NCBI GenBank assembly: GCA_017625935.1
Contig: JAGALA010000001.1
Span: forward strand, 34,473 to 98,472
Origin: Clostridia bacterium
GTDB taxonomy: Bacteria > Bacillota > Clostridia > Oscillospirales > CAG-272
Length of the DNA stretch: 64,000 bases
Direction: 5' to 3'
Positions 8,356 to 22,702 of this stretch are shown here, one piece after another. The position numbers were made by a program, and so were the translations under genes. Below the pieces are notes generated by a model. The model searched no databases. It had not been told where the DNA came from and worked only from the letters and a program-made list of their open reading frames with translations. Numbering within the stretch: the first letter of the stretch is position 1; each line of letters opens with the position of its first letter.

Positions 8356-8495
8356 ATTTTCATACAATTTGTGTTTTCAAATTGATTCCATACAAGCATA
8401 TCACTTGATTCCATGCACCTAACGGTGATGCCATACAATGCGTTGCATTGATTTAATACAAGCCACAGGCTTGATCGATGATTTTGAGCGCAAAA
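8356..8495 (-). repeat. Hairpin array A: 6 different short hairpins joined by ATTCCATA-like 8-mers
   Basis: The hairpins are caattt..aaattg, caag..cttg, cacc..ggtg, caatgc..gcattg, caagcc..ggcttg and ttttg..caaaa. They are separated by attccata, attccatg, atgccata, atttaata. On the minus strand the linker reads TATGGAAT. Confidence 0.7.
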
Positions 8496-8522
8496 AAAGA
8501 ACAGGCGGTTGCCTGTTCTTTT
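8491..8522 (-). terminator. Rho-independent terminator of the dxs-lipoprotein transcript
   Basis: The stem is aagaacaggc / gcctgttctt with loop ggtt. An A7 run on plus gives a U-run on the minus transcript. Confidence 0.75.
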
Positions 8523-8580
8523 AGTATTTTATTTTGAAATATTATTCTTCTATGTCAGGGAGTTGGAGACAAGGAACCGT

Positions 8581-8616
8581 CCCCTGTCTTATTCCCTGTC
8601 TTAGTCCCCTGTCTTA
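8581..8616. repeat. Three tandem CCCTGTCTTA decamers spanning the stop codon of 8601..9239
   Basis: The sequence is cccctgtctta ttccctgtctta gtcccctgtctta. The third copy encodes the C-terminal KTGD plus the stop. Confidence 0.8.
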
Positions 8617-9239: not shown

Positions 9240-9249
9240 TTTTTCTCTC

Positions 9250-11088
9250 CTACATTTTTTCACTTATTATTTCGTTTACCACGTCGTGAGGTGTTAAGGA
9301 AAGATGCTCATACAGCTCGCTAAGCGTGCCGCACGGAACAAAGGTGTCAATCGCTTTGATTTTAACCCTCGCTTGCGTGCCCGCGAGGTATGAAGCGATT
9401 TTTTCGCCGACGCAGCCGTTTTTATAAATTTCCTCAAGCGTGTAAATTAGCTCCTTGCCCGAGAGCAAGCCTGTCAGATAGCTTCTGTCAAGCGGGAAAA
9501 TTTTAACAAGCTTTACTATGCCCGTGTCGCTCGGCAAGTCCTTTAATGCCTCGTTTGCTACCTCTGCCATTCTGCCATAGGTGACTATTACGCGCTTGGC
9601 AGCTTCAATGCCCGATGAGTAGTAAAGCATATGCTCACCGTCGTATATCATTTCGCGCGCAGGTGTGTACGTTTTCTCCGCGCCCTTTGGATATCTTACA
9701 ACCGATAAGCAACCGTCGCTTGATGATTTTGAAATTGTGTTTTTTAATTCCTCGTATGTTTCGGGGGAATAAATTTTCGCATTTGGCACACACGAGAAAA
9801 GCTGATAGTCAAAAACGCCCTGATGTGTGTATCCGTCACCCTCGACAACGCCGCACCTATCAAGCAGGAGCGTAAGCGGAAGATTTTGGAGCGAAATATC
9901 GTGAAGCGCTTGGTCAAACGACCTTTGTGCAAACGTGGAATATAGAGCCACAATCGGCTTCATTCCGTTTTTGGCAAGACCGCCCGCAAAGGTGACTGCG
10001 TGCTCCTCGGCTATGCCGACATCGTAAAAGCGCTCGGGAAATTCATTTGCAAACGGAGTGAGCCCTGTGCCGTCTGCCATTGCGGCGGTTATTGCACAAA
10101 CTTTCTCGTCCTCTCTTGCTAAACCGACAACCGCTTCACCCGCAACCGAGGAAAAGGTTTGGGGCATCTTTTTGTGCGCCTCTCCGCTTTCGATGTCAAA
10201 CGTGCCAATGCCATGATACCTGCTTGGCTCGCGCTCGGAGGGCAGATAGCCAACGCCCTTTTGAGTTTTCATATGCACAACGCAAGCGCCGCCGCGTTTT
10301 TTGGCTTCCTCTAACACGTTTATCAGCGCTTTTATATTATTTCCGTCAACAGGACCAATGTAGTCAAGCCCGAGGTTTTCAAAAATCGTGTTGCCCATCA
10401 ACGCACGGCGAATTTTGTTCTTTACCCAAGCAAAGAGCTTGACAAAGGGCTTGCCAAGAAGCGGGAAAAATCCAATACGCTTAGCGCCGCGCTTGAACCT
10501 GAAATAGCCGCGGCTGACTCTGATTTTGGAAAGATATTTTGCAAGGCCGCCCACGTTTTGGGAAATTGACATTTCGTTGTCGTTTACCAAAATAATTAGC
10601 TTCAGCCCCTTGGCTGAGGCATTGTTCAGCGCCTCGTAAGCCATGCCGTTTGTAAACGAGCCGTCTCCGATTATTGCAATTGTGTATGAGTCGTCGCCCT
10701 TTAATTTGTTCGCCTCGGCAATGCCGATAGCGCTTGAAATTGAAGTGCCCGAGTGACCTGCAAAGAATATATCGTGCGCACTCTCCTGGGGACTTGTAAA
10801 GCCCGAGGTGCCGCCGAGCTTGCGTAAATTTTCAAACGGAACGCTTCTTTCATTTTCGGTTATTATCTTATGTGCGTACGCCTGGTGGCCGACGTCAAAA
10901 ATCAGCTTATCCTTTGGGGATGCAAAAACGCGATGGAGGGCAACCGTTGCTTCAACCATACCGAGGTTTGATGCTAAGTGACCGCCGTTTTTTGAAACGG
11001 TATCTATTATTCTTTCGCGAATTTCGTGCGCCAAAAGCGGCAGCTCTTTAACACCTGCGCTCTTTATTTCGCTTAAATAATCTCGCAT
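9250..11088 (-). CDS. dxs: 1-deoxy-D-xylulose-5-phosphate synthase
   Basis: 612 aa matching Dxs across its full length: N-terminal LP.LA.EIR, the ThDP motif GDGS..NGMAYEALN, and transketolase-like pyrimidine and C-terminal domains. Confidence 0.95.
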   Translation of the reverse strand: MRDYLSEIKSAGVKELPLLAHEIRERIIDTVSKNGGHLASNLGMVEATVALHRVFASPKDKLIFDVGHQAYAHKIITENERSVPFENLRKLGGTSGFTSPQESAHDIFFAGHSGTSISSAIGIAEANKLKGDDSYTIAIIGDGSFTNGMAYEALNNASAKGLKLIILVNDNEMSISQNVGGLAKYLSKIRVSRGYFRFKRGAKRIGFFPLLGKPFVKLFAWVKNKIRRALMGNTIFENLGLDYIGPVDGNNIKALINVLEEAKKRGGACVVHMKTQKGVGYLPSEREPSRYHGIGTFDIESGEAHKKMPQTFSSVAGEAVVGLAREDEKVCAITAAMADGTGLTPFANEFPERFYDVGIAEEHAVTFAGGLAKNGMKPIVALYSTFAQRSFDQALHDISLQNLPLTLLLDRCGVVEGDGYTHQGVFDYQLFSCVPNAKIYSPETYEELKNTISKSSSDGCLSVVRYPKGAEKTYTPAREMIYDGEHMLYYSSGIEAAKRVIVTYGRMAEVANEALKDLPSDTGIVKLVKIFPLDRSYLTGLLSGKELIYTLEEIYKNGCVGEKIASYLAGTQARVKIKAIDTFVPCGTLSELYEHLSLTPHDVVNEIISEKM

Positions 11089-11215
11089 TTTTCATCCTCC
11101 CTTCCAAGCGTTATACTGTACATTTTTACATAACTATACATAATAAATATATCACAATGCGCGCCCAAAGTCAAGGGCGATGTGCGCGCCGCTTGTGCAA
11201 AATACGGGATTTTTG

Positions 11216-11244
11216 TTGCAAAGCGCATAAATAAATGATATAAT
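11216..11244 (+). promoter_or_regulatory. SigA-type promoter for the CotH-lipoprotein gene
   Basis: TTGCAA (11216-21), a 17-nt spacer, then TATAAT (11239-44). Confidence 0.6.
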
Positions 11245-11305
11245 AAACTAAGAGAGGTGCGCTAAATCTCTGTTACACGCAAATTAACCTTGAAGGGAGA
11301 GCTTT

Positions 11306-13636
11306 ATGAAAAGAATTTTGCCCGTTTTTGTCAGTTTAATATCTATATTGCTTCTTCTTTGCGCATGCGGTGAGGAAGCGCAAGCACCAAAAAATATAAC
11401 CGTGCGCGCTGAATATATAGCTTCCGAGGGTGGCACTATTGAGGGTGCGGTTACACAGGAAAAGACGGTTATAAAGGGTGAAAATGCAGCGTTTGATCTG
11501 GTGACAGCCAAGCCAAATGACGGCTTCTCCTTCCTTTCGTGGAGTGATGGCAAAACAGACCCATCCCGCTCCGATTTACTTTCCCAAAGCACAGTGTTCA
11601 CCGCAGTTTTTGAGAAAATCCCAACGTACAAGCTCACCTATTTAGCAAGTGAGGGCGGCACTATAAGCGGTGCAAGCTTGCAAGAAATACAAATCGGCAA
11701 CGTGGGCACGCCTGTTATAGCGGTACCGAGCGAGGGCTACAAGTTTATTGGCTGGGATGACGGCTGCAATACGAGCGAAAGAAGCGATGCATCTGATGCG
11801 GACAAGACCGTTACCGCACTTTTCGAGCTGATACAATACGGCACGGTTGAATATAAGCACACAATGGGCGGCACACTTGTGGGAGAAGCAATACAAACGG
11901 TTGAATACGGCAAATCAACCACCACAATTACCGCTGTGCCAAGCGAGGGCTACACCTTTGCTTCTTGGAATGACGGCGTGACAACCCCATCAAGAAGCGA
12001 TATTGTAAACGGGAATAAAACCTACCTTGCGCGCTTTTCAAGCGGCGTTACCGCCAATTATTCAGCTACCGACGGTGGAGTGATCGACGGTGAAAGCACC
12101 CAAAAATTGAGCTACGGTCAAAAATCAAGTGAGGTTACCGCTGTTGCAAACGACGGATATATATTTGTTTCGTGGAGCGACGGCGTAACGGACAACCCAA
12201 GATGCGACACGGTTAAAGCAAATTTATCGGTAACGGCGATTTTTAAGCGCTACTACTCCGTGCACTACTCCTGCAACGATACACAAGGTACGCTAACGGG
12301 TGTGCTTGAGCAGGATATTATCGAGGGTGAATACGGCACTGAGGTAACGGCAACGCCAAAATCGGGCTTCGAGTTTATCATGTGGAGCAATGGCGAAACA
12401 AGCCCGACAATTAAGTCCGTTGGCGAGGAAACAATCACACATATTGCATATTTTTCACCAAAAAGCACAGGACTTCCTGTCATTTCAATAAACACCGAGG
12501 GGAACAAGCAAATCACCTCAAAGACGGAATACATAAACTGCGTTATCACCGTTTACGACACGGAAACAGGTGAGTACCACGTGTGCGAGGAGGGCGCTGA
12601 GATAAGAGGCCGCGGAAACTCCACGTGGAACTTTGAGAAAAAGCCGTACAAATTTAAGTTCAATAAAAAGCAAAACCTTTTTGGCTTCGGCAAGGACAAG
12701 GACTGGGTTTTAATGGCGGACTATATTGACAATTCTCTGCTTCGTAACTACCTTGCCTACACAGTAGCAGGTGAGCTCAGCGCACTTGAATCCTCTCCCG
12801 ACTGCCAAAGCGTTGAGCTTTATCTAAACGGTCAGTACAGGGGCGTTTATCTGCTTTGTGAGCAGGTTGAGGTCAACAAGGGCAGAGTTGAAATCAGCGA
12901 TGACCCAACCGAGGTTGACACCGGTTATCTAATTGAGATGGACGGTTGGGGGGATACAGTTCAGGTTTACGTGCCTGACCGACTCTCGTCAAACCGTAAA
13001 TATACTGTAAAATCGCCTGACAGCGACGTTATCACACCAACTCAAAAGCAATATATTCAAAATTATATAACGCAATGCATTCAAGCCATTCAAGGCTCGA
13101 ACTACGATCACGTTTTAGGGCTTATTGACGTAGAGTCCTTTGCGCAGGCGTACATAATTTATGAGATGTTCAAAAACCCCGACGTTGACTACTCAAGCGT
13201 TTATTTTTACAAGGAAGCAAGCGGCAAGCTATACTGCGGACCGATGTGGGACTTCGATATGTCAATCGGCAACGTAAACCATAAGGGCGGCGGTGCGTTC
13301 CAAAGCACCGAAACGCTCTGGACAAAGGAGAAAAACCCTTGGTTCAATGCGCTTTTAGAGTTTGACCAGTTCAAGGAGCTTGTTTACGAGGAATTAATCA
13401 AGGCAGAGCCGATAATTAAATCAAAGCTCGCCGAATGCTACGACTATGCCTATGCGCACGATGACGCATACAAAAAGAATTTCCAAACGTGGCGCGTCAT
13501 CGGAATAAATACATGGACAAACCCATACTATATCGTTCAAATCAGCACCTGGGAGGGACACGTTGAATACACACGTGAGTACCTGCTTGACAGCTTAGCA
13601 TATCTGATAAAATACTATACGCCGAAGCAGACTTGA
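11306..13636 (+). CDS. Lipoprotein with ~6 Listeria-Bacteroides (Flg_new-type) repeats and a C-terminal CotH kinase-family domain
   Basis: It has a signal peptide with lipobox LLLCAC. The repeats follow GGTI.G......G......A.P..GY.F..W.DG....R.D. The C-terminal half carries CotH hallmarks (IRGRGNSTWNFEKKPYKFKF..., DWVLMADYIDNSLLRNYLA). Confidence 0.85.
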   Translation: MKRILPVFVSLISILLLLCACGEEAQAPKNITVRAEYIASEGGTIEGAVTQEKTVIKGENAAFDLVTAKPNDGFSFLSWSDGKTDPSRSDLLSQSTVFTAVFEKIPTYKLTYLASEGGTISGASLQEIQIGNVGTPVIAVPSEGYKFIGWDDGCNTSERSDASDADKTVTALFELIQYGTVEYKHTMGGTLVGEAIQTVEYGKSTTTITAVPSEGYTFASWNDGVTTPSRSDIVNGNKTYLARFSSGVTANYSATDGGVIDGESTQKLSYGQKSSEVTAVANDGYIFVSWSDGVTDNPRCDTVKANLSVTAIFKRYYSVHYSCNDTQGTLTGVLEQDIIEGEYGTEVTATPKSGFEFIMWSNGETSPTIKSVGEETITHIAYFSPKSTGLPVISINTEGNKQITSKTEYINCVITVYDTETGEYHVCEEGAEIRGRGNSTWNFEKKPYKFKFNKKQNLFGFGKDKDWVLMADYIDNSLLRNYLAYTVAGELSALESSPDCQSVELYLNGQYRGVYLLCEQVEVNKGRVEISDDPTEVDTGYLIEMDGWGDTVQVYVPDRLSSNRKYTVKSPDSDVITPTQKQYIQNYITQCIQAIQGSNYDHVLGLIDVESFAQAYIIYEMFKNPDVDYSSVYFYKEASGKLYCGPMWDFDMSIGNVNHKGGGAFQSTETLWTKEKNPWFNALLEFDQFKELVYEELIKAEPIIKSKLAECYDYAYAHDDAYKKNFQTWRVIGINTWTNPYYIVQISTWEGHVEYTREYLLDSLAYLIKYYTPKQT

Positions 13637-13668
13637 ATTAAGATATCAAGGTAAGGAAATGAGGAAAA

Positions 13669-14493
13669 ATGTACTATAAGCATAATTTAGACTATAAATA
13701 TCCCGACAAGTGCGACGAGCATATGCTTGTGGTAAAGCGTGTGCGCGAAACGAATTTTGACGAAAATTACGACTATATAGACAAGAAAAAAAGCCGCAAG
13801 GTGAAGAATTTCTTTTTCGCATTTGCTATGAACTTAATTGTTTTTCCGCTCCTTCGCTTAACGCACGGGCTGAAGATTTACGGCAAGGAAAACTACAAGA
13901 AAAACAAGGATTTATTCAAAAACGGCGCGATAACGATTTCAAACCACGTTTTCAAATGGGATTTTATCTGCGTTATCAAGGCGATAAGACCGCACCTTGT
14001 GCGCTTCCCTGCTTGGCAAACGAACTTTGAGGGCTCAGATGCAAAGCTCATTCGTTGGGCGGGAGGCATGCCTATACCGACGCACAGTATGAAGGCGATG
14101 AGGCGCTTCGGGCGCGACTTTGAGGAGCTTTTGGAAAGCGGAAAATGGATTCACTTCTTCCCCGAGGGCTCAATGTGGTATTTTTACCCCGATATTAGAC
14201 CCCTTAAAAAGATGGTCTTTAAGTACGCGGTGAAATTCAACCGCCCGATAATTCCAATGTCGTTTTCGTTCCGTGAGCGAAGGGGAATTACGCGCCTGTT
14301 CACCAAAAAGCCGTGTGTTGACCTGCACGTAGGCGCGCCGCTCATTCCAAACGCGCAAGCACCTGCATACAGCGAGGTTGACCGCCTGCACACCGTCGCA
14401 TACGATATAATGCAAAAAATGGCAGGCATCACTCCCGATATGGAAAACTACCGCACCGTACAGGATTTTGAGAATTACCAAAAAACGATGTAA
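13669..14493 (+). CDS. Lysophospholipid (1-acyl-glycerol-3-phosphate-type) acyltransferase family protein
   Basis: 274 aa with the HX4D motif (NHVFKWD), an FPEGS motif and an N-terminal membrane helix. Confidence 0.75.
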   Translation: MYYKHNLDYKYPDKCDEHMLVVKRVRETNFDENYDYIDKKKSRKVKNFFFAFAMNLIVFPLLRLTHGLKIYGKENYKKNKDLFKNGAITISNHVFKWDFICVIKAIRPHLVRFPAWQTNFEGSDAKLIRWAGGMPIPTHSMKAMRRFGRDFEELLESGKWIHFFPEGSMWYFYPDIRPLKKMVFKYAVKFNRPIIPMSFSFRERRGITRLFTKKPCVDLHVGAPLIPNAQAPAYSEVDRLHTVAYDIMQKMAGITPDMENYRTVQDFENYQKTM

Positions 14494-14494
14494 C

Positions 14495-14610
14495 TGGCGC
14501 AAAGCGAATGAATTGCCCGTTGGGCATGAATTGCAACACAGTTGCATGAATTGACCCGCGGTCATGAATTGGCTATCGCCATGAATTGTTGTTTCACAAT
14601 ATGAATTTTA
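14495..14610 (+). repeat. Hairpin array B: six ATGAATT linkers (core CATGAATTG) separating unrelated short hairpins
   Basis: ATGAATT occurs at 14508, 14526, 14546, 14564, 14581 and 14601. The intervening hairpins are gcccgttgggc, gcaacacagttgc, gacccgcggtc, ggctatcgcc and attgttgtttcacaat. The array starts 2 nt after the stop codon at 14493. Confidence 0.8.
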
Positions 14611-14640
14611 ATTTCTATATTGCAACAAAAGCCATCCGCT

Positions 14641-14704
14641 GTCATTCTGAGTTTTTATCGGTGCGTACCTGCAACGCGGCAGGAGCAAGCCCCTGCCCTA
14701 CAAG
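14641..14704 (-). repeat. GTCATTCTGAG ... hairpin ... CTACAAG intergenic repeat element (single copy, inverted relative to the copies at 62.6 kb)
   Basis: The sequence is gtcattctgag-N26-ggcagg agcaagcc cctgcc-ctacaag. Its reverse complement aligns with CTTGTAGGG-hairpin-CTCAGAATG at 62625-62667 and 62805-62847. Confidence 0.65.
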
Positions 14705-14726
14705 TACACATCACACTAATAAAAAA

Positions 14727-14762
14727 ACAGCACCCTGTGTCTAATTTGGGTGCTGTTTTTTT
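14727..14762 (+). terminator. Bidirectional rho-independent terminator
   Basis: An A7 run is followed by the stem cagcaccc / gggtgctg and then a T7 run. Confidence 0.7.
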
Positions 14763-14970
14763 AAGTTTAGAGTTATGAGGCTCGCTTCTCTCGCCGTTAT
14801 GAGCTTGAGAAAACTCAAGCGTTATGATATGATTGCCCATATTGCCTAAAGCTTGGCGAAGCCAATCATAACGATGCAAAGCATCTCATAACTCATATCT
14901 TGCCCATTTGGGCAATCATAGTTTAGCGTGATGTCCTTGTAAGACATCACGCTAATTTGGGTGCTGTTTT
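14761..14970 (+). repeat. Element C: nested-helix structured segment with GTTATGA / TCATAAC arms, bounded by 19-bp direct repeats
   Basis: The direct repeats ctaatttgggtgctgtttt lie at 14741-59 and 14952-70. CGTTATGAT (14820-28) pairs with ATCATAACG (14865-73), and GTTATGAG (14796-803) pairs with CTCATAAC (14885-92). There are local hairpins at 14804-19, 14853-65, 14873-85 and 14900-15, and a 13-bp stem at 14922-55. Confidence 0.7.
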
Positions 14971-14973
14971 CTT

Positions 14974-15141
14974 TTATTCAATTATTTCATATTGCAGCAT
15001 TTCGTACTTTAGTCGCGTGCCGATATCGACACCGTCTGGCAAAAGAAACATAGCAATAAAAATCTCCTCGCCGCTTTCTTCATTGGCAATGTAGGCGTAC
15101 TCGCCCTCGATGCGCGTTACTCTATAAAATTGTGTTTCCAT
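14974..15141 (-). CDS. DUF3006-like small protein (55 aa), translationally coupled to the upstream Cys-rich lipoprotein
   Basis: It falls below the ORF-track size cutoff. The product is METQFYRVTRIEGEYAYIANEESGEEIFIAMFLLPDGVDIGTRLKYEMLQYEIIE. There is an ATGA overlap with the stop of 15141..16469. Confidence 0.55.
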   Translation of the reverse strand: METQFYRVTRIEGEYAYIANEESGEEIFIAMFLLPDGVDIGTRLKYEMLQYEIIE

Positions 15142-16469
15142 CATTCTGTTTCCTCGGCACTGTATTCGTATGCAATATCGCCGTTTTCATCAAGCAACGC
15201 AAAATAATACATTTCGTTCCATCCGATAAGCGACGGCTTGTATAAGCGAACGCACTTAAAGTCACAGTTTATACATTCATAATTATCGCCGACTCTATCA
15301 AGGCAGTGTTGGACTTGGAAGTCTAACAGCTCAAGATGCTTATACGCGCCACAGTAGCATTCAAAAAGATACAGCTGACCGTGCTCGCCAAAATCCTTTA
15401 TCAGCTCTTTATTACCGCTTGTGTGGTTTTCGTTTGTTAAAAATTCTCTTTCTGTATAATCACATCCGTTACAGCTTCTCGTTACTATATAACCAAGCTC
15501 GCAGGTTCCGTAAATCGGCGGCTCAACAGTAGCGGAGAGCGTGTGATCTCTTTCATTTTTGTGAATGTAGTTTTTGGCGCGGAAAATCTCCTCACCGTTT
15601 ATCGTCAACGCTTCCTCAGTCAATATGTTATTGACATTCGGTATGCCCTCTTTGTATAAATAATGCTCTATTCCGCACAGCGTACAAGCTGTTGTACGCA
15701 TATAAATGCTTTTTCCGTTTTCGACAGTATCGATGCTTTGCTTTGTTTTTATGTGTCTGCCATCGCAATATTGACTAACGGTATAGGTTTGGTTTTGTCC
15801 GCAAGGACAGGATTTTTTGGTTGCCGTACCGCCGCATGCACCAAATTCATCAAGATTTACAGTTTCTTCAATAAGCAGGTCGTGCGTGCGTCCTTCCGTG
15901 GCGATTTTTTTGCCACACGTAATGCACTCACCGTAACGGGTGTAGCCGTCTGCACAGTTGTCCTTTGCAAGCGAAAGTGAATAATATTCATAAATACACT
16001 CGCCGATTGGCAATTCCACCTCTTTTTTGTCCACGTATTCGCGTCCGTTCAAAATAAAAGTAGCTGACAGTATATATTTTCCCTTGGTTTTACAGGTTGA
16101 ATATATAATTTCATCCGTCACCGATGGGGAGTTTGAGGAATAAAACTTATTACAGCGCGAGCAGGTAATTGTAGCGTCAACCATTCCCCTCTCAAAATCC
16201 CACTCATAGTTTTCTGTGAAGCTGTGACCGAGTGGATCGTATTCCGTCATCTCTCTTTTATCACAAAGATCGCATTTTTTAATGCTGTATCCATCCGTCT
16301 CACACGTTGGAGCGACGGAGCTTTGTGTTGACCACTCGTGCGCGCACGCCTCCTCGCCCGAGTCGGATGAGGTGTCCGTATCGTCTCCTTGACAGGCGCT
16401 GAAAATGAGAGCTGAAAGAACAAGCGATAATATAATGACAAATATGCTCAAATGTTTTTTATTTTTCAT
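15141..16469 (-). CDS. Cys-rich lipoprotein, paralog 1 of 4
   Basis: GGAGGTG RBS before the ATG at 16469 (MKNKKHLSIFVIILSLVLSALIFSAC, lipobox). It has repeated C..C / H..W....PTC...G.....C..C modules and aligns with the ORFs at 18078, 19431 and 20980. Confidence 0.85.
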   Translation of the reverse strand: MKNKKHLSIFVIILSLVLSALIFSACQGDDTDTSSDSGEEACAHEWSTQSSVAPTCETDGYSIKKCDLCDKREMTEYDPLGHSFTENYEWDFERGMVDATITCSRCNKFYSSNSPSVTDEIIYSTCKTKGKYILSATFILNGREYVDKKEVELPIGECIYEYYSLSLAKDNCADGYTRYGECITCGKKIATEGRTHDLLIEETVNLDEFGACGGTATKKSCPCGQNQTYTVSQYCDGRHIKTKQSIDTVENGKSIYMRTTACTLCGIEHYLYKEGIPNVNNILTEEALTINGEEIFRAKNYIHKNERDHTLSATVEPPIYGTCELGYIVTRSCNGCDYTEREFLTNENHTSGNKELIKDFGEHGQLYLFECYCGAYKHLELLDFQVQHCLDRVGDNYECINCDFKCVRLYKPSLIGWNEMYYFALLDENGDIAYEYSAEETE

Positions 16470-16561
16470 CTTATCACCTCCAAAAAGCAAGCGCGGACGG
16501 TGAAAACGCATTCACCGTCCGCACAAAATGATATGCGTTTTTGATTTCTCAAATAGGTCGA

Positions 16562-17086
16562 TTATAGCTTTGAATAGCCGTGGCTGTTAACAAGTGCGTC
16601 GATTTTTTCGCCTTTTTTACACATCGGGCACTCGTGCGATGGGTAGGTTGCGTAGTCCTTAAGGTCATTCGGGTCGAAAACGGAGTTAACGGTATAGCCC
16701 GCGCACTCGTTAACGGTTGCGAATATGGCTGAGATGCCTGCAACGTTACCGCCGTAATACTTAACCGCTTCAACCGCCGCATTTGCGGTATAGCCCGTTG
16801 TAACGGAAGCCGCTAAGATAAGAACGTTTTTGCCCTTTATTGCACCTGCAATATTATCTCTGAAGATAAGCTGGCTGCCTGAGGTATGCTCAGGTGTGAT
16901 AACGTATATCGTTTGGTGCGCGTTTATGCTGAGGAAGCCGCCGCTTGTAAGCTCGTTTGCCAAGCAAGTGCCGACAACCTGCATACCGTCAAGACAAAGA
17001 ATGGTATCAACAATTGTGCTTGTGTTGTAATATGAAACAAGCTCACGTGCAACCGCCTGTGCCTCGGAAAGACGTGTTTTTTGCAT
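16562..17086 (-). CDS. Phosphoribosyltransferase-fold protein (PyrE-like) with C-terminal CxxC
   Basis: 174 aa with a PRPP-binding-loop-like VLILAASVTTGYT and a C-terminal HECPMCKKG. No Shine-Dalgarno precedes the ATG. Confidence 0.65.
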   Translation of the reverse strand: MQKTRLSEAQAVARELVSYYNTSTIVDTILCLDGMQVVGTCLANELTSGGFLSINAHQTIYVITPEHTSGSQLIFRDNIAGAIKGKNVLILAASVTTGYTANAAVEAVKYYGGNVAGISAIFATVNECAGYTVNSVFDPNDLKDYATYPSHECPMCKKGEKIDALVNSHGYSKL

Positions 17087-17264
17087 TGCAACGTCAATAT
17101 AGTAGTTTATATGGCTGTGGCTTGTTGCGAAGTGTCCCTATGAAACACGCAAAAATAGATTTTTGTTTTTGGTAATAACCTTAATTGAATCATTAGTAGG
17201 CATAATAAAACCCCTTTTTCTTTTATTGTATCACGAAACAGTCCTATGTGTCAACATAAAAATG

Positions 17265-17301
17265 AAAGCGCCCTCTGCTTTTTGGATGCAAAGGGCGCTT
17301 T
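17265..17301 (-). terminator. Terminator after lipoprotein gene 17315..17785
   Basis: The stem is aaagcgccct / agggcgcttt, and the minus transcript continues into a U-rich stretch. Confidence 0.5.
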
Positions 17302-17314
17302 AAAATATGCTTTA

Positions 17315-17785
17315 TCAGTAATTCGATGCTAATACGTTATATTCCATAGTCAAGCTTGCGCTCTCTCCCGCAATTTTCAGCTTGTATTTTCCGCTTGGGT
17401 TTTCTATTCTCGTTTCCACATTTTCACCGAGCGGGATATCAGCGATGATTTTGCCGTCCTGAACAAGACAAATGCGCACGTTGCCCGATTCAAGTGTAAC
17501 GGTTGATTTAATAATCAAGCAGCTTGCGTTGTTGCTATACACGTTGCCGATGGTATAAACGCCCGAAAGCTTTTTCGTCGTATAGCGCGTAACTCCGCCC
17601 TGCATACCCTGCTTGTTTGAGCTCATTGCTTGAAAGTTATCCGAATTGTCCACAATGTCTTCCTCAGTCAGCTTACCAAGGGAATAGTCCTCCTCGCCGT
17701 TTGTGTCCGCAATATGCACGCACGAGCAAAGGCAGACAGACAAAAGAAGCAAAGAAGCTGCAATTATTGCAATTTTTTTATTCAT
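17315..17785 (-). CDS. Small lipoprotein, hypothetical
   Basis: 156 aa. It has a signal peptide with Cys cluster LLSVCLCSC and a beta-rich mature part. Confidence 0.75.
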   Translation of the reverse strand: MNKKIAIIAASLLLLSVCLCSCVHIADTNGEEDYSLGKLTEEDIVDNSDNFQAMSSNKQGMQGGVTRYTTKKLSGVYTIGNVYSNNASCLIIKSTVTLESGNVRICLVQDGKIIADIPLGENVETRIENPSGKYKLKIAGESASLTMEYNVLASNY

Positions 17786-18077
17786 AAGGCTCTCCTTTAT
17801 ATCTAATTATTGTTTGGTAAAATTATATCACATTTGGTACACCTTGTCAACTGCTTTGCTTTTGACGCGCATTCCCTTTTTTTCATTTATTTTTCACGAT
17901 TTGTTCAGACACGCTACATTGACTTTTATTTTCTTACTGTGATATACTGTATATGGGAAAGTATACAAATTTTTAAGAAATTTGAAAATTTATGTAACCT
18001 AAAGAACAAAAAAGCCGTCTTTTTTAATGAAGGGCAATGAGCCTTTTCTTCTAAGACGCCTTTGAAAGGACTTTTTT

Positions 18078-19397
18078 ATGAAAAAGAAGCTGATTTTAAT
18101 TGCAATTCTCGCATTTGGCGTATTGGCGCTTATTTCCTGCGGACAAAACACCGCAAACTCGGACACGTCCACGGGCGAAAAGGCGGAATGTGTGCACGAA
18201 TATATCTCGGTGGGGACAACGGTGCCCACCTGCACAGAGGGTGGCTCTGCCACGCTTGAGTGTACTCTTTGCGGCTTTAGAAAGGACGTAACCTTAGACC
18301 CTGCGGGACACGATTTCAATGCTTCCTTCGATTGGTCAAGCGACTACACACACGCATCCGTTTTGCTTGAATGCAAGCGCGATGCAAGCCACGTATATAA
18401 CGTATCCGCAACCATATACGAGGAAACGGTTGAGCCGAGCTGCAAGACCGTCGGCTCACAAAAAATCACCGCCAAGGTTACTTGGGGAGGCAAGGACTAC
18501 ACCGACGTAAAGGAATTCAACCTCGGGCTCGGTGAATGCAAAAATACGTACTCCTTTTCCCTTCACGGTGACTCCTGCACGGACGGCTTTGATATGGAGG
18601 CTGTTTGCTCCGAATGCGGGGCGAAATCACACGCATCCTTTGATTCACACGTGCTTTTCGATATGGCAAGCTTTAAGGTTTGCGGCGGTGAGGCGGTGGT
18701 GAAGGAATGTCCGTGCGGCGAAAACGTAGAGCTTGACGAGGTGGGCGCGTGCCTTGGAGAGGTCGAGCTTGACGAGTGGACGGAAACGGACGAGGACGGC
18801 ATAACCTACACCTTTGAGCATCGCTTTTGCACAAGATGCGATTTTGAAATTATACGCAAAAAGCATTCAACAAGCGAGGGCTGCTATACGTATTTACATA
18901 GACAAACAAGCATCGTTGACGGCGACAAGGTGCTTTATTCCTTCAACGAGCCAAGATACGACGTGGTAGATTTTCACGAGCTTGTTTATTCATATGACGG
19001 CGGAAAAATTGAGTCCTGCGAAAACGGATATACCGCCGAGGTGAGCTGCAAAAAATGCGGCTACACCGCCGAAATTACGGAAAACACACACGCGTTGAAA
19101 TTTGATTTTGAAAAAATTGACCTCTCCACCCTTGGCGCGTGCGGCGGCTACCTGCTTATCAAAAAATGCCCGTGCGAAAAATCGTCGGACGTTAGCTATT
19201 CTCTTTTCTGCGACTATGAATATTCATACGAGGAAAAGAGCGTGGACGGTGAGCTGCACACAGTTAAAACCTATACCTGTGACGCGTGCAAAACAGAATT
19301 TATGTACGACGAATATATAAAGGATGGAAAGATATACGGTCTTTGGCGCTTAACCGTTGACGGCGAGGTAAAATACGAGCTTTCGCTCACTTTTTAA
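18078..19397 (+). CDS. Cys-rich lipoprotein, paralog 2
   Basis: Lipobox LALISCGQN. The modules CVHEY....PTCTEGGSATLECTLCG, SCTDGF...CSECG, VCGGE..KECPCG and SCENGY...CKKCG are present. Confidence 0.9.
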   Translation: MKKKLILIAILAFGVLALISCGQNTANSDTSTGEKAECVHEYISVGTTVPTCTEGGSATLECTLCGFRKDVTLDPAGHDFNASFDWSSDYTHASVLLECKRDASHVYNVSATIYEETVEPSCKTVGSQKITAKVTWGGKDYTDVKEFNLGLGECKNTYSFSLHGDSCTDGFDMEAVCSECGAKSHASFDSHVLFDMASFKVCGGEAVVKECPCGENVELDEVGACLGEVELDEWTETDEDGITYTFEHRFCTRCDFEIIRKKHSTSEGCYTYLHRQTSIVDGDKVLYSFNEPRYDVVDFHELVYSYDGGKIESCENGYTAEVSCKKCGYTAEITENTHALKFDFEKIDLSTLGACGGYLLIKKCPCEKSSDVSYSLFCDYEYSYEEKSVDGELHTVKTYTCDACKTEFMYDEYIKDGKIYGLWRLTVDGEVKYELSLTF

Positions 19398-19430
19398 GAA
19401 AAATTTATTTAAAATTCGGGAGGAACGGAT

Positions 19431-20942
19431 ATGAAAAAAAGAATAGCTTTAATGATGACTCTTGCACTTATGCTCATTTTCATTTTTCTGCTTTGCTCCT
19501 GTGGCAAGGAAAACGAACAAACCAAGATTATTTATATTGACAGAAACGAAAAGTACGGCTACTGCGAGCACAGATGGGAGTCACAGGGGCAAACCTCACC
19601 CACCTGCACAAAAGAAGGCGCAAACTATATGAAATGCACCCTTTGCGGTGAGAGAAAAACTGTCAAAATTCCAACAGTTGAGTGTGAATATGAAGAAAGC
19701 TGGCAATGGTACAATAATAATAATTCCGTTGCGCTTATTCTTCACTGCAAGCATAATCCCGCGCACAATAAAACAGTAACGGGACACGTAAGCTACATCT
19801 ACGGTCAGCTGATACAGCCCTCAACCTGCACGGAGGCGGGCAAGCTTAGCTACCGTGCAAGCGCAGTTTATCAAGGAAAAACGTACTCTACGGAAAAAAT
19901 AGAAACGCTTTCACGTACACCGCACAAGTATGAAACAGTTACAACCCAGATGGGCGGTTGCCTTGGCAGAACAAGAACCGTACAAAAATGCACAGAGTGC
20001 GGTATTGAAAAAATCTACACCGAAAAAATAACCTACGAGCACACAGACACTGCCTTGAAGGCACGCTATGACCTGACGAGCTACGGCTACTGCGGCGGCT
20101 ATATTGAAATAAAGGGATGCGAGTGCGGCGAGATAACCTATCTTAACATCAAGCCAAGCTGTCAGGATTTAAAAGAGGTGTGCGAGGTAGTAAGCGAGGA
20201 CGAAAAAACAGGCGAAAGACACGTAAGAATGACCTCAATTTGCACCGCCTGCTCACTGTGCATTGTAAACGAGCTTGGCACATATGATGGCTGTGAGCTC
20301 TACTCAAAAACAACCGTTGCCCTTAACGGTGACACTGTGATTTCATACTGCGATGTAAACGAAGCAAACCACGATCTCCTCAGTATGAATCACGAAACGG
20401 TGATAACGTATGAAGGCTTAAAGGCAAGCTGCAAGGACGGATACTTTTTGGTATTTTCCTGCGTCAAGTGCCCGTACGAAAAGAAGCTTTACACAAAGGG
20501 ACACTACTTGACAAGCGAGTCCGAGTCGTTCAGTGACACGTGCGGTATTGGCGTTACCGTGGAAAAATGCCATTGCGGCTACATCGGTGATATAGAATTA
20601 GAATACGTTGACCGCCAAGAAACCGAAATTTCACCAAGCGAGCACTTTGGTGAAAGCACAGGCTTGCAATATCTTGCAAAAGCCTATAAATGCACCGAGT
20701 GCGGCATTTCCTACTATTTCGGTCCCGTTTTGGAGGTTGCCGAGGTTGACGGAACGGAAATTGCTTTGATTTATGAAATCTGCTCGATAAAAAAGGACGG
20801 CGAGATAATTTATGAGATAAGCTCCTCAAACGTTAGCTACTTAAACGCCTCCCCGAGCTTCACCTTTACCAGGGACCCCGTTGATGAGGAGCGAGCCTTG
20901 CTCGATGATTATTTTAATTCGATAAAAAATCAAGCGCAATAA
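19431..20942 (+). CDS. Cys-rich lipoprotein, paralog 3
   Basis: Lipobox LLCSCGKEN, GGAGG RBS, and the same module order as paralogs 1, 2 and 4 (CEHRWESQGQTSPTCTKEGANYMKCTLCG...). Confidence 0.9.
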   Translation: MKKRIALMMTLALMLIFIFLLCSCGKENEQTKIIYIDRNEKYGYCEHRWESQGQTSPTCTKEGANYMKCTLCGERKTVKIPTVECEYEESWQWYNNNNSVALILHCKHNPAHNKTVTGHVSYIYGQLIQPSTCTEAGKLSYRASAVYQGKTYSTEKIETLSRTPHKYETVTTQMGGCLGRTRTVQKCTECGIEKIYTEKITYEHTDTALKARYDLTSYGYCGGYIEIKGCECGEITYLNIKPSCQDLKEVCEVVSEDEKTGERHVRMTSICTACSLCIVNELGTYDGCELYSKTTVALNGDTVISYCDVNEANHDLLSMNHETVITYEGLKASCKDGYFLVFSCVKCPYEKKLYTKGHYLTSESESFSDTCGIGVTVEKCHCGYIGDIELEYVDRQETEISPSEHFGESTGLQYLAKAYKCTECGISYYFGPVLEVAEVDGTEIALIYEICSIKKDGEIIYEISSSNVSYLNASPSFTFTRDPVDEERALLDDYFNSIKNQAQ

Positions 20943-20979
20943 GAAAACAGCAAAAACAGCCACCACGGGGGAATAAAAC

Positions 20980-22626
20980 ATGAAAAAAAGAATTATTTCA
21001 ATTGCACTTTTAGCATTTTCCTTTGTTTTCGCGCTCCTTCTTGCCTCTTGCGGTAAGGGAAATGAAAGAACAGAGGTAGTATTTATTGAAAAACCCGATA
21101 GATACGAATCGTGCGAGCATAATTGGCAAATAAAAAGTCAAACCCTTGCAACCTGCGTTTCAGAGGGCAAAATCACAATGAGCTGTACGCTTTGCCGCAA
21201 GGTCAACACAGTATCAACGCCCAAGACCGAATGTGAATATAACACCTATTGGAAATGGCACAACAATCAAACCTTAGCGCGCCTTTATTTTGACTGTCCG
21301 TACAATTCCGCACATACGTATTCCGTTGACGGCACATGCACGACTACAACCGTTGAAAAAACCTGCTTACAGCGCGGCTCTGTCACGAAAGTTGCCGAGG
21401 TTACTCATAACGGAGAAAAATACACCGACACGCTTATTATCGACAAGGGTTTGGGCGCTCACAACTACAAAACCACATATGAGCTTCTCGCATTTAACTG
21501 CGAGGACGGAATAAAAAGGACCGACACCTGCACCGTTTGCGGTGACGTGCAAGAGAGCATTGAATATTCGCATCGTTTATTAAACGAGGAAACGGTATAT
21601 TCCTTCGACGAGCTTGGTCTTTGCGCGGGAGGCAGTATTACACAGCGCGTATGCTTATGCGGTGAAACGCGTAGTGATAAATATACCGTACACAATTCGA
21701 GCTGTACCGTAACACGTAATAAGAATATTGCACATAACGGCACAATAGATTATTACAGCATTACAGATGTATGTAGCGAGTGCGGCTTTACCTACAAGTT
21801 TGACGGCGCCGCCACCCATGATAGCACGGACAGATATATGTACGCATACAAAATAAACACATATACTCTTACGGAAGATATCACCCTAATTAACGAAGCT
21901 TTTGATAATAGCGCGCACGATTTATTCGAGCATAAGGTTGAATACACCTACAATATGATAGACAACCGCTGGCACGAACAAACCGCCACCTGCACTGAAT
22001 GCTTGTATAAGCATAAAAATCAAGCATTACACAGTATGAGCTATTTCTACGAGCCGCTTGGAAAAACATGTCTTGACGGGGTGAAAGCATCGGGCGAATG
22101 CCGCGATTGTGGATATACCAATGAATACGTTACCTACAATCACACAACATCAGGCGTAAAGGAAATCTATGACCTTGAAAGCTACGGCTTCTGCCAAGGA
22201 GAAATAGTCCTTGAGGTGTGCTATTGCGGATATGAGCGCTTAGCGCCAAGAGGCGTGCATTGGTACAGCCAACGCACAAGCGAGAAAAAGGAAGAAACCG
22301 ACACATCAATTCTCATCAAGAAAACCGAAAGATGCTCAAAATGCGGATTTTCCATAGAAACAGTCGATGAGCGCACGTTAATTGACGGTGCTTGGTACAA
22401 AACCGGCATCATCACAAACATTTATTTGGATGAGGAAACAGCGCTTACATCAAGAAAGGATATCTTTAAGCTACACAGCGGCATTCCGCTACCCGACGAG
22501 GAGATACCTAAAGCAATAGAAGAGCTTGAAGCATTGCTAAACGACGCAAGCTGCACCTTGGACGACGATATGCGGCGAATCCTTACTTACTATTTGGAGG
22601 ATTTGAAAAATCGCCAAGCGAACTAA
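20980..22626 (+). CDS. Cys-rich lipoprotein, paralog 4
   Basis: Lipobox LLASCGKGN. It begins CEHNWQIKSQTLATCVSEGKITMSCTLC... and has a helical acidic C-terminal tail. Confidence 0.9.
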   Translation: MKKRIISIALLAFSFVFALLLASCGKGNERTEVVFIEKPDRYESCEHNWQIKSQTLATCVSEGKITMSCTLCRKVNTVSTPKTECEYNTYWKWHNNQTLARLYFDCPYNSAHTYSVDGTCTTTTVEKTCLQRGSVTKVAEVTHNGEKYTDTLIIDKGLGAHNYKTTYELLAFNCEDGIKRTDTCTVCGDVQESIEYSHRLLNEETVYSFDELGLCAGGSITQRVCLCGETRSDKYTVHNSSCTVTRNKNIAHNGTIDYYSITDVCSECGFTYKFDGAATHDSTDRYMYAYKINTYTLTEDITLINEAFDNSAHDLFEHKVEYTYNMIDNRWHEQTATCTECLYKHKNQALHSMSYFYEPLGKTCLDGVKASGECRDCGYTNEYVTYNHTTSGVKEIYDLESYGFCQGEIVLEVCYCGYERLAPRGVHWYSQRTSEKKEETDTSILIKKTERCSKCGFSIETVDERTLIDGAWYKTGIITNIYLDEETALTSRKDIFKLHSGIPLPDEEIPKAIEELEALLNDASCTLDDDMRRILTYYLEDLKNRQAN

Positions 22627-22671: not shown

Positions 22672-22702
22672 CAAAAAACAGCCACCCTGTGGCTGTTTTT
22701 TA
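22672..22702. terminator. Bidirectional terminator
   Basis: An A6 run is followed by the stem cagccac / gtggctg and a T6 run, between convergent genes. Confidence 0.75.

What the first reader, a model, noticed from the sequence alone, without database searches (positions are those of the whole stretch)
14974..22626. Cluster of four paralogous Cys-rich lipoproteins built from repeated zinc-ribbon-like modules
The ORFs 15141-16469 (-), 18078-19397, 19431-20942 and 20980-22626 (+) all start with a lipobox signal peptide. They align over their N-terminal ~170 aa: C.H.W......PTC...G.....C.LC........P..(GH|EC).....W.W.........C......H... then ...C...G.....A.V...G..Y.

Each then continues with further C-x2-G...C-x2-C-G, CGG....K.C.CG and C..C units, giving ~30 Cys per protein.

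Extracytoplasmic proteins this Cys-rich are unusual for an anaerobic Firmicute. They suggest structural metal sites or a dedicated oxidative-folding route.

Similar CxxC/His-rich segments sit just before the CTD of the LRR cassette family (for example 56519-58684: NCGYDETTTNTCVICK, NCETALNCDVC). The two families may therefore share a module.

The cluster also contains a coupled 55-aa DUF3006-like gene (ATGA overlap), a PRTase-like protein with its own C-terminal CPMC, and another small lipoprotein.
Basis: partly seen in the sequence, partly recalled or inferred. Interest (0 to 1): 0.6.

Follow-up and report, generated by a model that had tools for sequence, protein, structure and literature searches.

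The report
Zinc-clasped rod-module lipoproteins, four paralogs
Four neighbouring genes encode membrane-tethered surface proteins built only from small His/Cys "knuckle" units that most likely hold zinc; the same units form the stalk of a gut-bacterial IgA protease and, unannotated, make up thousands of giant surface proteins of anaerobic bacteria.

Summary
Four paralogs (A 15141-16469 minus; B 18078-19397, C 19431-20942, D 20980-22626 plus) each have a lipoprotein signal peptide and 27-31 Cys. They are 21-29% identical, yet 21-25 Cys positions are kept.

- **Architecture:** every protein is signal peptide, one ~120-aa "N" module, then two ~150-aa "R" modules.
- **Metal sites, not disulfides:** conserved Cys and His fall into sets of four (N = 2 sets, R = 3 sets). 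Cys counts are odd and Cys/His swap at ligand positions.
- **No annotation:** no Pfam, NCBIfam or direct PDB sequence match. The R module folds confidently (pLDDT 92) into an all-beta domain with no Foldseek neighbour in the PDB.
- **Closest relative:** profiles of the basic ~45-aa unit hit the C-terminal ZBD1/ZBD2 (CTD2/CTD4) domains of the Thomasclavelia ramosa IgA protease (E about 1e-7). In 2025 these were proposed as an uncharacterised zinc-associated "periscope" rod fold.
- **Not rare:** an exhaustive HMM search finds 11,024 cluster representatives, mostly 2,000-7,500-aa proteins carrying many copies.

The genes are therefore minimal members of a large undescribed module superfamily. Zinc binding and the rod/stalk role are inferred, and no ligand is known. 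The proposed link to the window's LRR cassette proteins is only weakly supported.

The parts
15141..16469 (-). Gene A: 442-aa lipoprotein (Cys26). N module 16002-16364, R1 15546-16010, R2 15147-15557 (R2 is divergent).
   Evidence: ORF. Module HMM hits: N 7.7e-36, R1 9.4e-33, R2 7.9e-7. Ortholog in L001 is 43% identical with 27/27 Cys kept.
18078..19397 (+). Gene B: 439-aa lipoprotein (Cys21). N module 18171-18533, R1 18525-18974, R2 18963-19394.
   Evidence: ORF. HMM hits: N 1.2e-35, R1 2.9e-32, R2 2.5e-28. AF2 full length pLDDT 72; R2 alone pLDDT 91.9, pTM 0.77. Ortholog 59% identical, 27/27 Cys.
19431..20942 (+). Gene C: 503-aa lipoprotein (Cys24). N 19545-19919, R1 19911-20387, R2 20379-20852, acidic helical tail 20853-20939.
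   Evidence: ORF. HMM hits: N 1e-34, R1 3.5e-28, R2 9e-22. It starts 33 nt after B and is preceded by GGAGG. Tail motif.
20980..22626 (+). Gene D: 548-aa lipoprotein (Cys24). N 21094-21456, R1 21448-21930, 29-aa insert with an extra knuckle, R2 22018-22476, tail 22477-22623.
   Evidence: ORF. HMM hits: N 2.8e-29, R1 6.7e-30, R2 4.7e-28. It starts 37 nt after C. A bidirectional terminator-like hairpin lies at 22672-22702.
14974..15144 (-). 55/56-aa DUF3006-like gene overlapping the end of A by ATGA. It is fused in frame to the A-type protein in relative P0005.
   Evidence: Pfam PF11213 E 3.3e-4, below the gathering score. Overlap. Conserved next to A in L001. Fusion in P0005.
16562..17203 (-). 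PRTase-like gene with a C-terminal HECPMC. It is interrupted by an in-frame TAG at 17138-17140; the 174-aa ORF 16562-17086 remains.
   Evidence: Sub-threshold PRTase hits (TIGR01367 E 6.5e-9, 35.7 bits against a 150-bit cut-off). The L001 ortholog is 213 aa with AAG at that codon.
17315..17785 (-). 156-aa small putative lipoprotein (LCSC lipobox). It is unrelated to the module family and absent from the syntenic locus.
   Evidence: ORF. No Pfam or NCBIfam family. No module hit. Not in L001.
16491..16524 (-). Strong hairpin plus T-run between the PRTase-like gene and A, 22 nt upstream of A's start codon.
   Evidence: 14-bp stem with 9 GC pairs. Sequence. No Rfam family.

Best explanation
**What the genes encode**
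- A, B, C and D are Sec-exported, lipid-anchored extracytoplasmic proteins.
- Their whole mature part is a chain of small beta-sheet units, each clasped to the next by a tetrahedral His/Cys metal site. The metal is most likely structural Zn(II).

**The basic unit** (~45 aa) reads GH.Y...(P/A)TC...G.....C..CG....ALGH and supplies one His and three Cys.

**Two fixed supermodules are built from it**
- N (~120 aa) is one canonical unit plus a permuted unit, with ligand sets H-C-C-C and H-C-H-C.
- R (~150 aa) is three divergent units followed by a beta-meander, with ligand sets H-C-C-C, H-C-C-C and C-C-C-C.

**Site count**
- Each protein is N-R-R, which predicts about eight metal sites.
- In B, every mature Cys except C38 is assigned to a site.

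**Proposed role**
- The unit is homologous to the ZBD1/ZBD2 (CTD2/CTD4) stalk domains of the T. ramosa IgA protease.
- By analogy, the proteins are stiff, disulfide-free, metal-stabilised rods projecting from the membrane through or into the cell wall.
- They would act as short stand-alone versions of the stalks that make up giant surface proteins of gut and rumen anaerobes.
- The four old, divergent paralogs would present different surfaces for binding.

**Shown:** paralogy, signal/lipobox, module architecture, ligand-column conservation, homology to the IgAse domains, a confident all-beta fold, and wide distribution.

**Inferred:** zinc occupancy, rod shape, surface exposure, and the structural or adhesive role. 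The ligand is unknown.
For: **Architecture**
- Every paralog and every small relative is SP-N-R-R.

**Ligand columns**
- In about 1,000 unique R copies, conservation is H5 85-87%, C18/C28/C31 96-100%, H42 85-88% with 10% Cys, and C58/C67/C69/C107/C110 96-100%. C81 is 51-89% and C125 is 60-68%, depending on which of the two R profiles is used.
- In about 200 N copies it is H9, C21, C31, C34, H47 (5% Cys), C68, H74 (70%) and C91.
- That gives 12 and 8 ligand positions, i.e. 3 and 2 tetrahedral sets. Cys numbers per set are odd.

**Cys/His exchanges among the window paralogs themselves**
- N column 47 is GH in A and B but EC in C and D.
- R1 column 5 is Cys in A and B but His in C and D.
- A replaces C-x5-H with C-x2-C in the N module.
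- All A orthologs have His for Cys at R2 column 58.

**R is three units**
- Profile-profile comparison shows the three R segments and the second half of N each resemble the basic unit (E 6e-6, 4e-4, 2e-5, 2e-5).

**Predicted structure**
- The knuckles sit at beta-hairpin turns in a pLDDT 91.9 model.

**Homology to a characterised protein**
- N and unit profiles hit PDB 9qa6 (IgA protease) at E 6e-8 and 1e-7, over its ZBD regions.
- Published work on that protein reports no disulfides despite 24 Cys, predicted H2C2/C3H sites between three-stranded sheets, and ZBD1 about 110 A long (PMC12237041).
- A second paper reports a SAXS-verified extended rod and proposes a metal-associated periscope domain (PMC12415215).

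**Weak hits all point the same way**
- Weak Pfam and PDB hits are predominantly to zinc-ribbon, zinc-finger and rubredoxin knuckles.

**Giant relatives**
- Median length is 2,581 aa with 9 R copies and 75% module coverage. 48 of 141 have lipobox-like N-termini, and the ten tested have no Pfam family reaching its cut-off that covers the modules.
Against: - **No coordinates:** none were available, so ligand geometry in the models was not inspected.
- **No metal measurement:** none exists for any family member, including the IgAse ZBDs, which are themselves only modelled.
- **Incomplete third site:** the third R site is often incomplete. C125 is missing in 32-40% of copies and in B's R2.
- **Conflicting co-loss signal:** C58 tends to be lost together with C107/C110 (phi about 0.4). 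That fits a different ligand partition from the one suggested by unit homology.
- **R not linked directly:** the R profile does not hit the IgAse.
- **No head domain:** these proteins have no obvious functional head for a stalk to display, so a pure stalk role is incomplete.
- **Uninformative context:** neighbouring genes give no functional clue.
Confidence: 0.62

Rival explanations
1. The proteins are disulfide-rich extracytoplasmic proteins. The Cys form cystine knots or ladders, as in EGF-like modules, and the organism has a dedicated oxidative-folding route.
For: The Cys density is high (5-6%) in exported proteins. R has 10 conserved Cys in many copies, an even number. C81 and C125 are the least conserved pair and could be an optional disulfide.
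Against: - N has 5 conserved Cys and 3 conserved His, and the basic unit has 3 Cys and 1 His, so the Cys counts are odd.
- His is 85-99% conserved at fixed spacing, and Cys/His swap at four ligand columns among the paralogs.
- The homologous IgAse shows no disulfides despite 24 Cys (PMC12237041).
- No Dsb, VKOR or thioredoxin-like gene was found among the cluster and flanking genes scanned (about 4.8-27.6 kb).
- The hosts are anaerobes (inference).
Confidence: 0.08
2. The proteins are surface metal-handling lipoproteins. The many His/Cys sites would capture, buffer or hand over Zn (or another thiophilic metal) at the cell surface. This is functionally like the pneumococcal histidine-triad (Pht) lipoprotein paralogs or ZinT/AdcAII (comparison from general knowledge).
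For: About 8 predicted sites per ~420-aa mature protein. Four clustered paralogs with lipid anchors. The third R site is often three-coordinate and so potentially exchangeable.
Against: - Fully coordinated Cys3His or Cys4 sites at hairpin knuckles are typical of inert structural zinc (PMC12415215).
- The same modules make up kilobase-long arrays in giant proteins, which fits a structural role better.
- No Zn ABC transporter or Zur/AdcR gene was found among the cluster and flanking genes scanned (about 4.8-27.6 kb).
- No AdcR- or Zur-like operator lies near the cluster (consensus sequences recalled from memory).
Confidence: 0.12
3. The proteins are redox-active iron sites. The CxxCG knuckles would bind Fe as in rubredoxins, making the proteins (and the giant arrays) extracellular electron-transfer or oxidant-scavenging elements.
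For: The unit profile gives short hits to rubredoxin knuckles (E 7e-4 to 0.3, 12-13 aligned residues). Rubredoxin-like Pfam families appear among the weak hits. One giant relative lies next to rubrerythrin and Fur genes.
Against: - The hits cover only the CxxCG turn.
- Most sites contain a His, whereas rubredoxin sites are Cys4.
- There is no second CPxCG knuckle at rubredoxin spacing.
- The neighbourhood of one relative is anecdotal.
- The IgAse authors assign zinc.
Confidence: 0.04
4. The proteins are specific adhesins or receptor-binding proteins in which the modules are themselves the binding surface, not merely a stalk. The four or five paralogs would have diversified for different host or glycan ligands.
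For: - No other domain is present that could serve as a head.
- The paralogs are old and divergent (21-29% identity) but each is conserved across species at 40-59%.
- Only the ligand scaffold is invariant, and the C-terminal beta-meander of R is variable.
- C and D types carry a conserved C-terminal tail.
- Related units sit in LRR, dockerin, SLH and InlB-repeat surface proteins.
Against: No ligand, binding pocket or similarity to a known adhesive domain was found. This reading overlaps with the best explanation rather than excluding it.
Confidence: 0.14

Closest known systems
ZBD1/ZBD2 (= CTD2/CTD4) of the Thomasclavelia ramosa M64 IgA protease (IgAse, UniProt Q9AES2, PDB 9QA6); described in 2025 as a putative novel zinc-binding fold / 'metal-associated periscope domain'
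   Same: - It has the same ~35-45-aa unit, H..(A/P)T(C/A)...G.....C..C....GH. Profile matches are E 6e-8 (N profile) and 1e-7 (unit profile) over the ZBD regions.
- It has His/Cys tetrads, all-beta small sheets, and no structural homologue in the PDB.
- It is extracellular in a gut Firmicute and disulfide-free.
   Different: - IgAse sites are mostly H2C2; here they are mostly HC3 or C4.
- IgAse has 2-3 simple units flanking a beta-barrel, as the tail of an enzyme with an LPXTG-type anchor.
- Here the units are organised into two larger fixed supermodules (N and R). R does not hit IgAse directly.
- Here the modules form the entire protein, which is lipid-anchored at its N-terminus and has no enzyme head.
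Periscope proteins / fibrillar-adhesin stalk repeats (SasG/Aap G5-E repeats; concept cited in PMC12415215 and PMC9210967)
   Same: Tandem, rod-forming, mostly single-layer beta-sheet repeats in cell-surface proteins. Copy number varies from 3 modules to dozens in the giant relatives.
   Different: There is no sequence or fold relationship. The G5-E repeats use no Cys, and their zinc mediates dimerisation rather than intradomain clasping. The window proteins lack an adhesive head domain.
Classical zinc ribbons / rubredoxin-type knuckles (TFIIS C-terminal domain, RPA12/RPB9, TFIIB, rubredoxin)
   Same: CxxC(G) knuckles sit at beta-hairpin turns. The weak sub-threshold matches are mostly to such families. 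The IgAse authors also note a distant resemblance of one subdomain to the TFIIS zinc domain.
   Different: No family reaches its threshold. A His plus a lone 'PTC' Cys replace the first CxxC knuckle. The proteins are extracellular, tandem and rod-forming rather than intracellular nucleic-acid-binding modules.
Pneumococcal histidine-triad (Pht) surface proteins (comparison from general knowledge, not tested)
   Same: Several clustered paralogous surface proteins with multiple Zn-binding motifs in a Firmicute.
   Different: Pht proteins use HxxHxH triads with exchangeable Zn and are regulated by AdcR. Here the sites are Cys-rich and structural in type, and no Zn regulon signals were found.

Membership tests
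IgAse ZBD / CTD2-CTD4 'metal-associated periscope' unit | Sequence-profile similarity to the ZBD subdomains | tested here: met
   The N-module profile A5 hits 9qa6_A at E 6.1e-8 (3 stretches). The unit profile A6 hits at E 9.6e-8, with two near-full-length unit alignments at i-E 0.0065-0.0068. Window protein B is a member of both profiles.
IgAse ZBD / CTD2-CTD4 'metal-associated periscope' unit | A set of four His/Cys ligands per unit at conserved spacing | tested here: met
   Across 613 units: H5 99%, C17 99%, C27 100%, C30 97%, next H43 98%. All four window proteins carry the set.
IgAse ZBD / CTD2-CTD4 'metal-associated periscope' unit | Small antiparallel beta-sheet subdomains with knuckles at hairpin turns | tested here: met
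   The AF2 model of R2 (pLDDT 91.9) is all-beta. C29/C32, C69/C71 and C106/C109 lie at strand ends or turns.
IgAse ZBD / CTD2-CTD4 'metal-associated periscope' unit | Zinc actually bound, with tetrahedral geometry | not testable with these tools
   No model coordinates were returned and no metal data exist. In IgAse itself the sites are only predicted.
IgAse ZBD / CTD2-CTD4 'metal-associated periscope' unit | Extended rod shape in solution | not testable with these tools
   SAXS exists only for IgAse CTD2. The full-length B model has pTM 0.39, consistent with a flexible multi-domain chain but not decisive.
Classical zinc-ribbon Pfam families (Zn_ribbon_*, TFIIS_C, rubredoxin) | Score above the family gathering threshold | tested here: not met
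   No Pfam or NCBIfam family scored above its cut-off for any of the four proteins or 38 R modules. The best E-values to zinc-ribbon/zinc-finger families were 0.002-0.1.
Bacterial lipoprotein (Sec/SPII) | Positively charged n-region, hydrophobic h-region and a lipobox ending in Cys within the first ~30 residues | tested here: met
   A FSAC26, B LISC21, C LCSC24, D LASC24 after K/R-rich starts. Judged by sequence rule only; no SignalP-type tool was available.
Disulfide-stabilised Cys-rich extracellular repeats (EGF-like type) | An even number of conserved Cys per repeat, paired loss of partners, and no dependence on His | tested here: not met
   3 Cys + 1 His per unit and 5 Cys + 3 His per N module. 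Cys/His exchanges occur at ligand columns.
DUF3006 (PF11213), for the 55-aa neighbour | Score above the gathering threshold | tested here: inconclusive
   E 3.3e-4, 21.3 bits against a 32.3-bit cut-off.
Type I phosphoribosyltransferase, for the 174/213-aa neighbour | Family-level HMM score | tested here: inconclusive
   TIGR01367 E 6.5e-9 but 35.7 bits against a 150-bit cut-off; Pfam Pribosyltran E 0.11. The gene carries an in-frame TAG.

The most novel reading that the evidence does not exclude
The dense arrays of Cys3His/Cys4 sites may not be inert clasps but the functional part. On that reading the N-R-R lipoproteins, and giant relatives with probably dozens to over a hundred predicted sites (extrapolated from up to 22 R copies and up to 72 units per protein), would act as an extracellular metal reservoir or sensor whose folding and stiffness depend on environmental zinc. 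Alternatively, loaded with iron, they could act as a redox-active surface wire in strict anaerobes. The evidence here cannot exclude this, because neither the metal identity nor its exchangeability was measured.
Probability: 0.07. Interest if true: 0.85.

Novelty: new variant of a known kind. Interest (0 to 1): 0.55.

Why it matters
- **A large unannotated family.** These genes are a compact entry point into a very large protein-module family: 11,024 cluster representatives in 1.84 billion, with proteins up to 7,583 aa that are about 75% made of the modules. The family is confined mainly to gut and rumen anaerobes.
- **How little is characterised.** Its only characterised relative is the stalk of one IgA protease, described in 2025 from models and SAXS alone.
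- **A tractable test system.** The ~440-aa N-R-R lipoproteins, or a single 144-aa R module that models at pLDDT 92, are far easier to handle than the giants. They could settle whether the fold binds zinc, how stiff it is, and what it does.
- **Practical pay-offs.**
  - Pfam-type models for the unit and for the N and R modules would annotate thousands of currently blank giant surface proteins.
  - They would also correct the impression that Cys-rich exported proteins are anomalous in anaerobic Firmicutes.

Tried and rejected
- **Direct family and structure matches:** Pfam and NCBIfam scans of the four proteins gave nothing. A PDB sequence search with the 4-sequence profile gave nothing.
- **Word-index homology search:**
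  - The family profile returned only 8 close relatives plus weak unit hits, which misleadingly suggested a tiny family.
  - The same tool with the R-module alignment found nothing.
- **Foldseek:** the full-length model against the PDB gave only spurious propeller hits at TM about 0.1. The high-confidence R model had no PDB match (best E 0.16) and no viral BFVD match (best E 0.023).
- **Genome-collection scan:** The scan with protein B found a single species representative.
- **Ligand co-loss statistics:** intended to assign ligands to sites, they gave weak and partly conflicting signals because the columns are nearly invariant.
- **Regulation:** a search for a metal riboswitch or other RNA upstream of the genes found none. 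Searches for AdcR/Zur-type operators found none near the cluster.
- **Module shared with the in-window LRR cassettes:** only sub-significant hits.
- **Literature:** searches for the repeat itself found nothing. The PDB hit then led to the IgAse papers.

Full report
**1. Observation**

The four ORFs are present as described.
- Each starts with a K/R-rich n-region, a hydrophobic stretch and a lipobox Cys: A FSAC26, B LISC21, C LCSC24, D LASC24.
- They contain 27, 27, 31 and 29 Cys.
- They align end to end at 22-27% identity. In a 12-sequence alignment with eight close relatives, about 24 Cys columns and several His columns are invariant.
- B, C and D are co-directional with 33- and 37-nt gaps and GGAGG/GGGGG ribosome-binding sites, which suggests an operon.
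- A lies on the other strand. It is followed by a 55-aa gene that overlaps it by ATGA.

**2. Anatomy**

I built HMMs from the family alignment and iterated them on the hits of the exhaustive search. This shows that each protein is signal peptide, then an N module (~120 aa), then two R modules (~150 aa each). C and D also have a short tail.

In about 1,000 unique R copies and about 200 full N copies from 190 proteins, the conserved Cys/His columns are as follows.
- **R:** H5, C18, C28, C31; H42 (10% Cys), C58, C67, C69; C81, C107, C110, C125 (60-68%).
- **N:** H9, C21, C31, C34; H47 (5% Cys), C68, H74 (70%), C91.

That is 12 and 8 positions, i.e. three and two sets of four.

The basic ~45-aa unit reads GH.Y...ATCT..G.....C..CG....ALGH. 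Its His and three Cys are 97-100% conserved in 613 copies.

Profile-profile comparison indicates how the modules are built from this unit.
- R is three divergent copies of the unit (E 6e-6, 4e-4, 2e-5) followed by a beta-meander.
- The second half of N is a unit that has lost its CxxC (E 2e-5) and borrows ligands from upstream.

In protein B, every mature Cys except C38 falls into one of eight predicted sets. The last set has only three ligands.

**3. Metal sites versus disulfides**

The evidence favours metal sites.
- Cys counts per unit and per N module are odd, and the partner is a highly conserved His.
- Cys and His exchange at ligand columns among the window paralogs themselves:
  - N column 47 is GH in A and B but EC in C and D.
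  - R1 column 5 is Cys in A and B but His in C and D.
  - A uses C-x2-C where the others use C-x5-H.
  - All A orthologs have His for Cys at R2 column 58.
- In the pLDDT 91.9 model of B's R2, the CxxC and CxC pairs sit at beta-hairpin turns.
- Sub-threshold Pfam and PDB hits are predominantly to zinc ribbons, zinc fingers or rubredoxin knuckles.
- No thiol-oxidoreductase gene was found among the cluster and flanking genes scanned, about 4.8-27.6 kb.

I could not inspect coordinates, so site geometry is inferred, not shown.

**4. Relatives**

The word-index search suggested a tiny family: eight full-length relatives, all from uncultured Clostridia/Eubacteriales MAGs. It also returned weak unit-level hits in LRR_5, dockerin and SLH proteins.

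One GTDB species representative has a syntenic locus. It carries:
- five paralogs;
- the PRTase-like gene;
- the DUF3006-like gene;
- the acyltransferase, CotH and DXS genes.

Orthologous pairs are 40-59% identical and keep 27/27, 27/27, 27/31 and 27/29 Cys. The duplications therefore predate the species split, and each paralog is maintained.

The exhaustive HMM search changes the picture.
- It finds 11,024 cluster representatives at E<=1e-3, 3,406 at E<=1e-10 and 703 at E<=1e-30.
- The best hits are giants. For the 147 proteins of at least 1,000 aa, median length is 2,581 aa and the maximum is 7,583 aa. They have a median of 9 R copies (maximum 22) and 75% module coverage, and 48 of 141 have lipobox-like N-termini.
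- Named members come from Erysipelotrichales and rumen Bacteroidales as well as Clostridia.
- In ten giants scanned, no Pfam family reached its curated cut-off except one InlB-type Flg_new repeat (P0044); weaker sub-threshold hits to Big_9, Imm50, DUF6383 and transglutaminase-like families also appeared. None covers the modules.

**5. Comparison with known families**
- No Pfam, NCBIfam or direct PDB sequence match exists for the four proteins.
- Broader profiles of the N module and of the unit hit PDB 9qa6, the Thomasclavelia ramosa IgA protease, at E 6e-8 and 1e-7. The matches fall exactly on its C-terminal repeats.

Two 2025 papers describe these regions.
- **PLoS Pathog (PMC12237041)** calls them ZBD1/ZBD2. 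It describes chains of three-stranded sheets with predicted H2C2 or C3H zinc sites at their interfaces. ZBD1 is about 110 A long for 129 residues, no disulfides were seen despite 24 Cys, and the domains are dispensable for catalysis. [quoted passage not shown]
- **PNAS (PMC12415215)** calls them CTD2/CTD4. It finds no structural homologue, shows by SAXS that CTD2 is a fully extended rod, and proposes "an uncharacterized periscope domain fold" that projects the protease from the cell.

The window proteins share this unit but differ in four ways.
- Their ligand sets are mostly HC3 or C4.
- The units are fixed into two larger supermodules. R is not detectable from IgAse, and N versus R align only over the unit.
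- There is no enzyme head.
- The anchor is an N-terminal lipid rather than an LPXTG-type C-terminus.

**6. Mechanism proposed**

The proteins are Sec-exported and lipidated at the lipobox Cys. They fold outside the membrane by capturing Zn(II) at about eight His/Cys sites that clasp successive small sheets into a stiff, disulfide-free rod.

This suits an anaerobe that lacks oxidative folding. The rod would project into or through the wall.

Because nothing but modules is present, the variable faces, especially the C-terminal meander of R and the C/D tails, are the likely interaction surfaces.

I put 0.62 on this explanation. The specific binding partner is unknown.

Rival explanations:
- modules acting as adhesins in their own right (0.14, overlapping the main explanation);
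- surface zinc handling (0.12);
- disulfide-rich folding (0.08);
- rubredoxin-like iron or redox sites (0.04).

**7. The LRR link**

Six LRR cassette proteins in the window give only E 0.017-0.9 against the unit. Their segments (for example G.K.V.AC...GC.Y....PALF, and H.Y......NC.........C..C in 56519-58684) look like degenerate or short relatives with fewer ligands. Canonical units do occur next to LRR_5 domains in other organisms. A shared origin is plausible but not demonstrated within this window.

**8. Verdict**

The claim of rarity is wrong. The genes are minimal, tractable members of a large unannotated superfamily whose only described relative is the IgA-protease stalk. I rate this a new variant of a recently proposed kind, of moderate to good interest (0.55). 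Its main value is as an entry point for defining and testing the fold.

Noticed in passing
window 17138-17140 (-), within 16562-17203: The PRTase-like gene has an in-frame TAG where the ortholog in L001 has AAG (Lys22). The intact gene would be 213 aa starting at 17203; only a 174-aa ORF from an internal Met remains. This could be a pseudogene, a truncated product or a sequencing error.
   Followed up: partly
window 14974-15144 (-) and P0005: The DUF3006-like 55-aa protein is fused in frame to the C-terminus of the A-type lipoprotein in relative P0005 (4 contigs). It overlaps A by ATGA here and lies 72 nt downstream in L001. The fusion suggests the two act together, possibly outside the cell.
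   Followed up: partly
window 20853-20939 (C) and 22477-22623 (D): C- and D-type paralogs and their orthologs end in a conserved acidic, probably helical tail (..L(T/D)(D/E)EE....(E/D).YF..hK(N)Q). It is absent from the A and B types and from all giant relatives, and may be a docking or sorting motif.
   Followed up: partly
window 16491-16590 (-): A strong hairpin with a T-run (14-bp stem) ends only 22 nt before A's start codon. It is preceded by an 11/12 sigma70-like promoter inside the end of the PRTase-like gene. It could be a terminator with read-through, or a leader/attenuator for A. There is no Rfam match.
   Followed up: partly
window 21931-22017 (D residues 318-346): D carries a 29-aa insert between R1 and R2 containing H..TATCTEC..KH, which looks like an extra mini knuckle with its own possible H2C2 set.
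   Followed up: no
window 11306-13636 (+): The upstream neighbour is a 776-aa lipoprotein with five InlB B-repeat/Flg_new domains and a CotH kinase-like domain. It is conserved next to the cluster in L001, together with an acyltransferase and DXS.
   Followed up: partly
window 31057-32733, 36416-38164, 41295-42926, 43230-44864, 51756-53090, 56522-58696 (all -): This is a family of LRR cassette proteins sharing a highly conserved ~170-aa C-terminal domain (..PALF.NLGFSAAEY..GGMSIGFKV...YGVFA..) preceded by short Cys knuckles. 51756-53090 appears truncated or frameshifted within the CTD.
   Followed up: partly
L003 (GCA_045632545.1, JAZQWY010000163.1) 6001-14991: A 2,996-aa lipoprotein giant (P0021) made almost only of these modules sits among housekeeping genes, next to rubrerythrin and Fur genes. 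No Pfam domain is detected in it.
   Followed up: no
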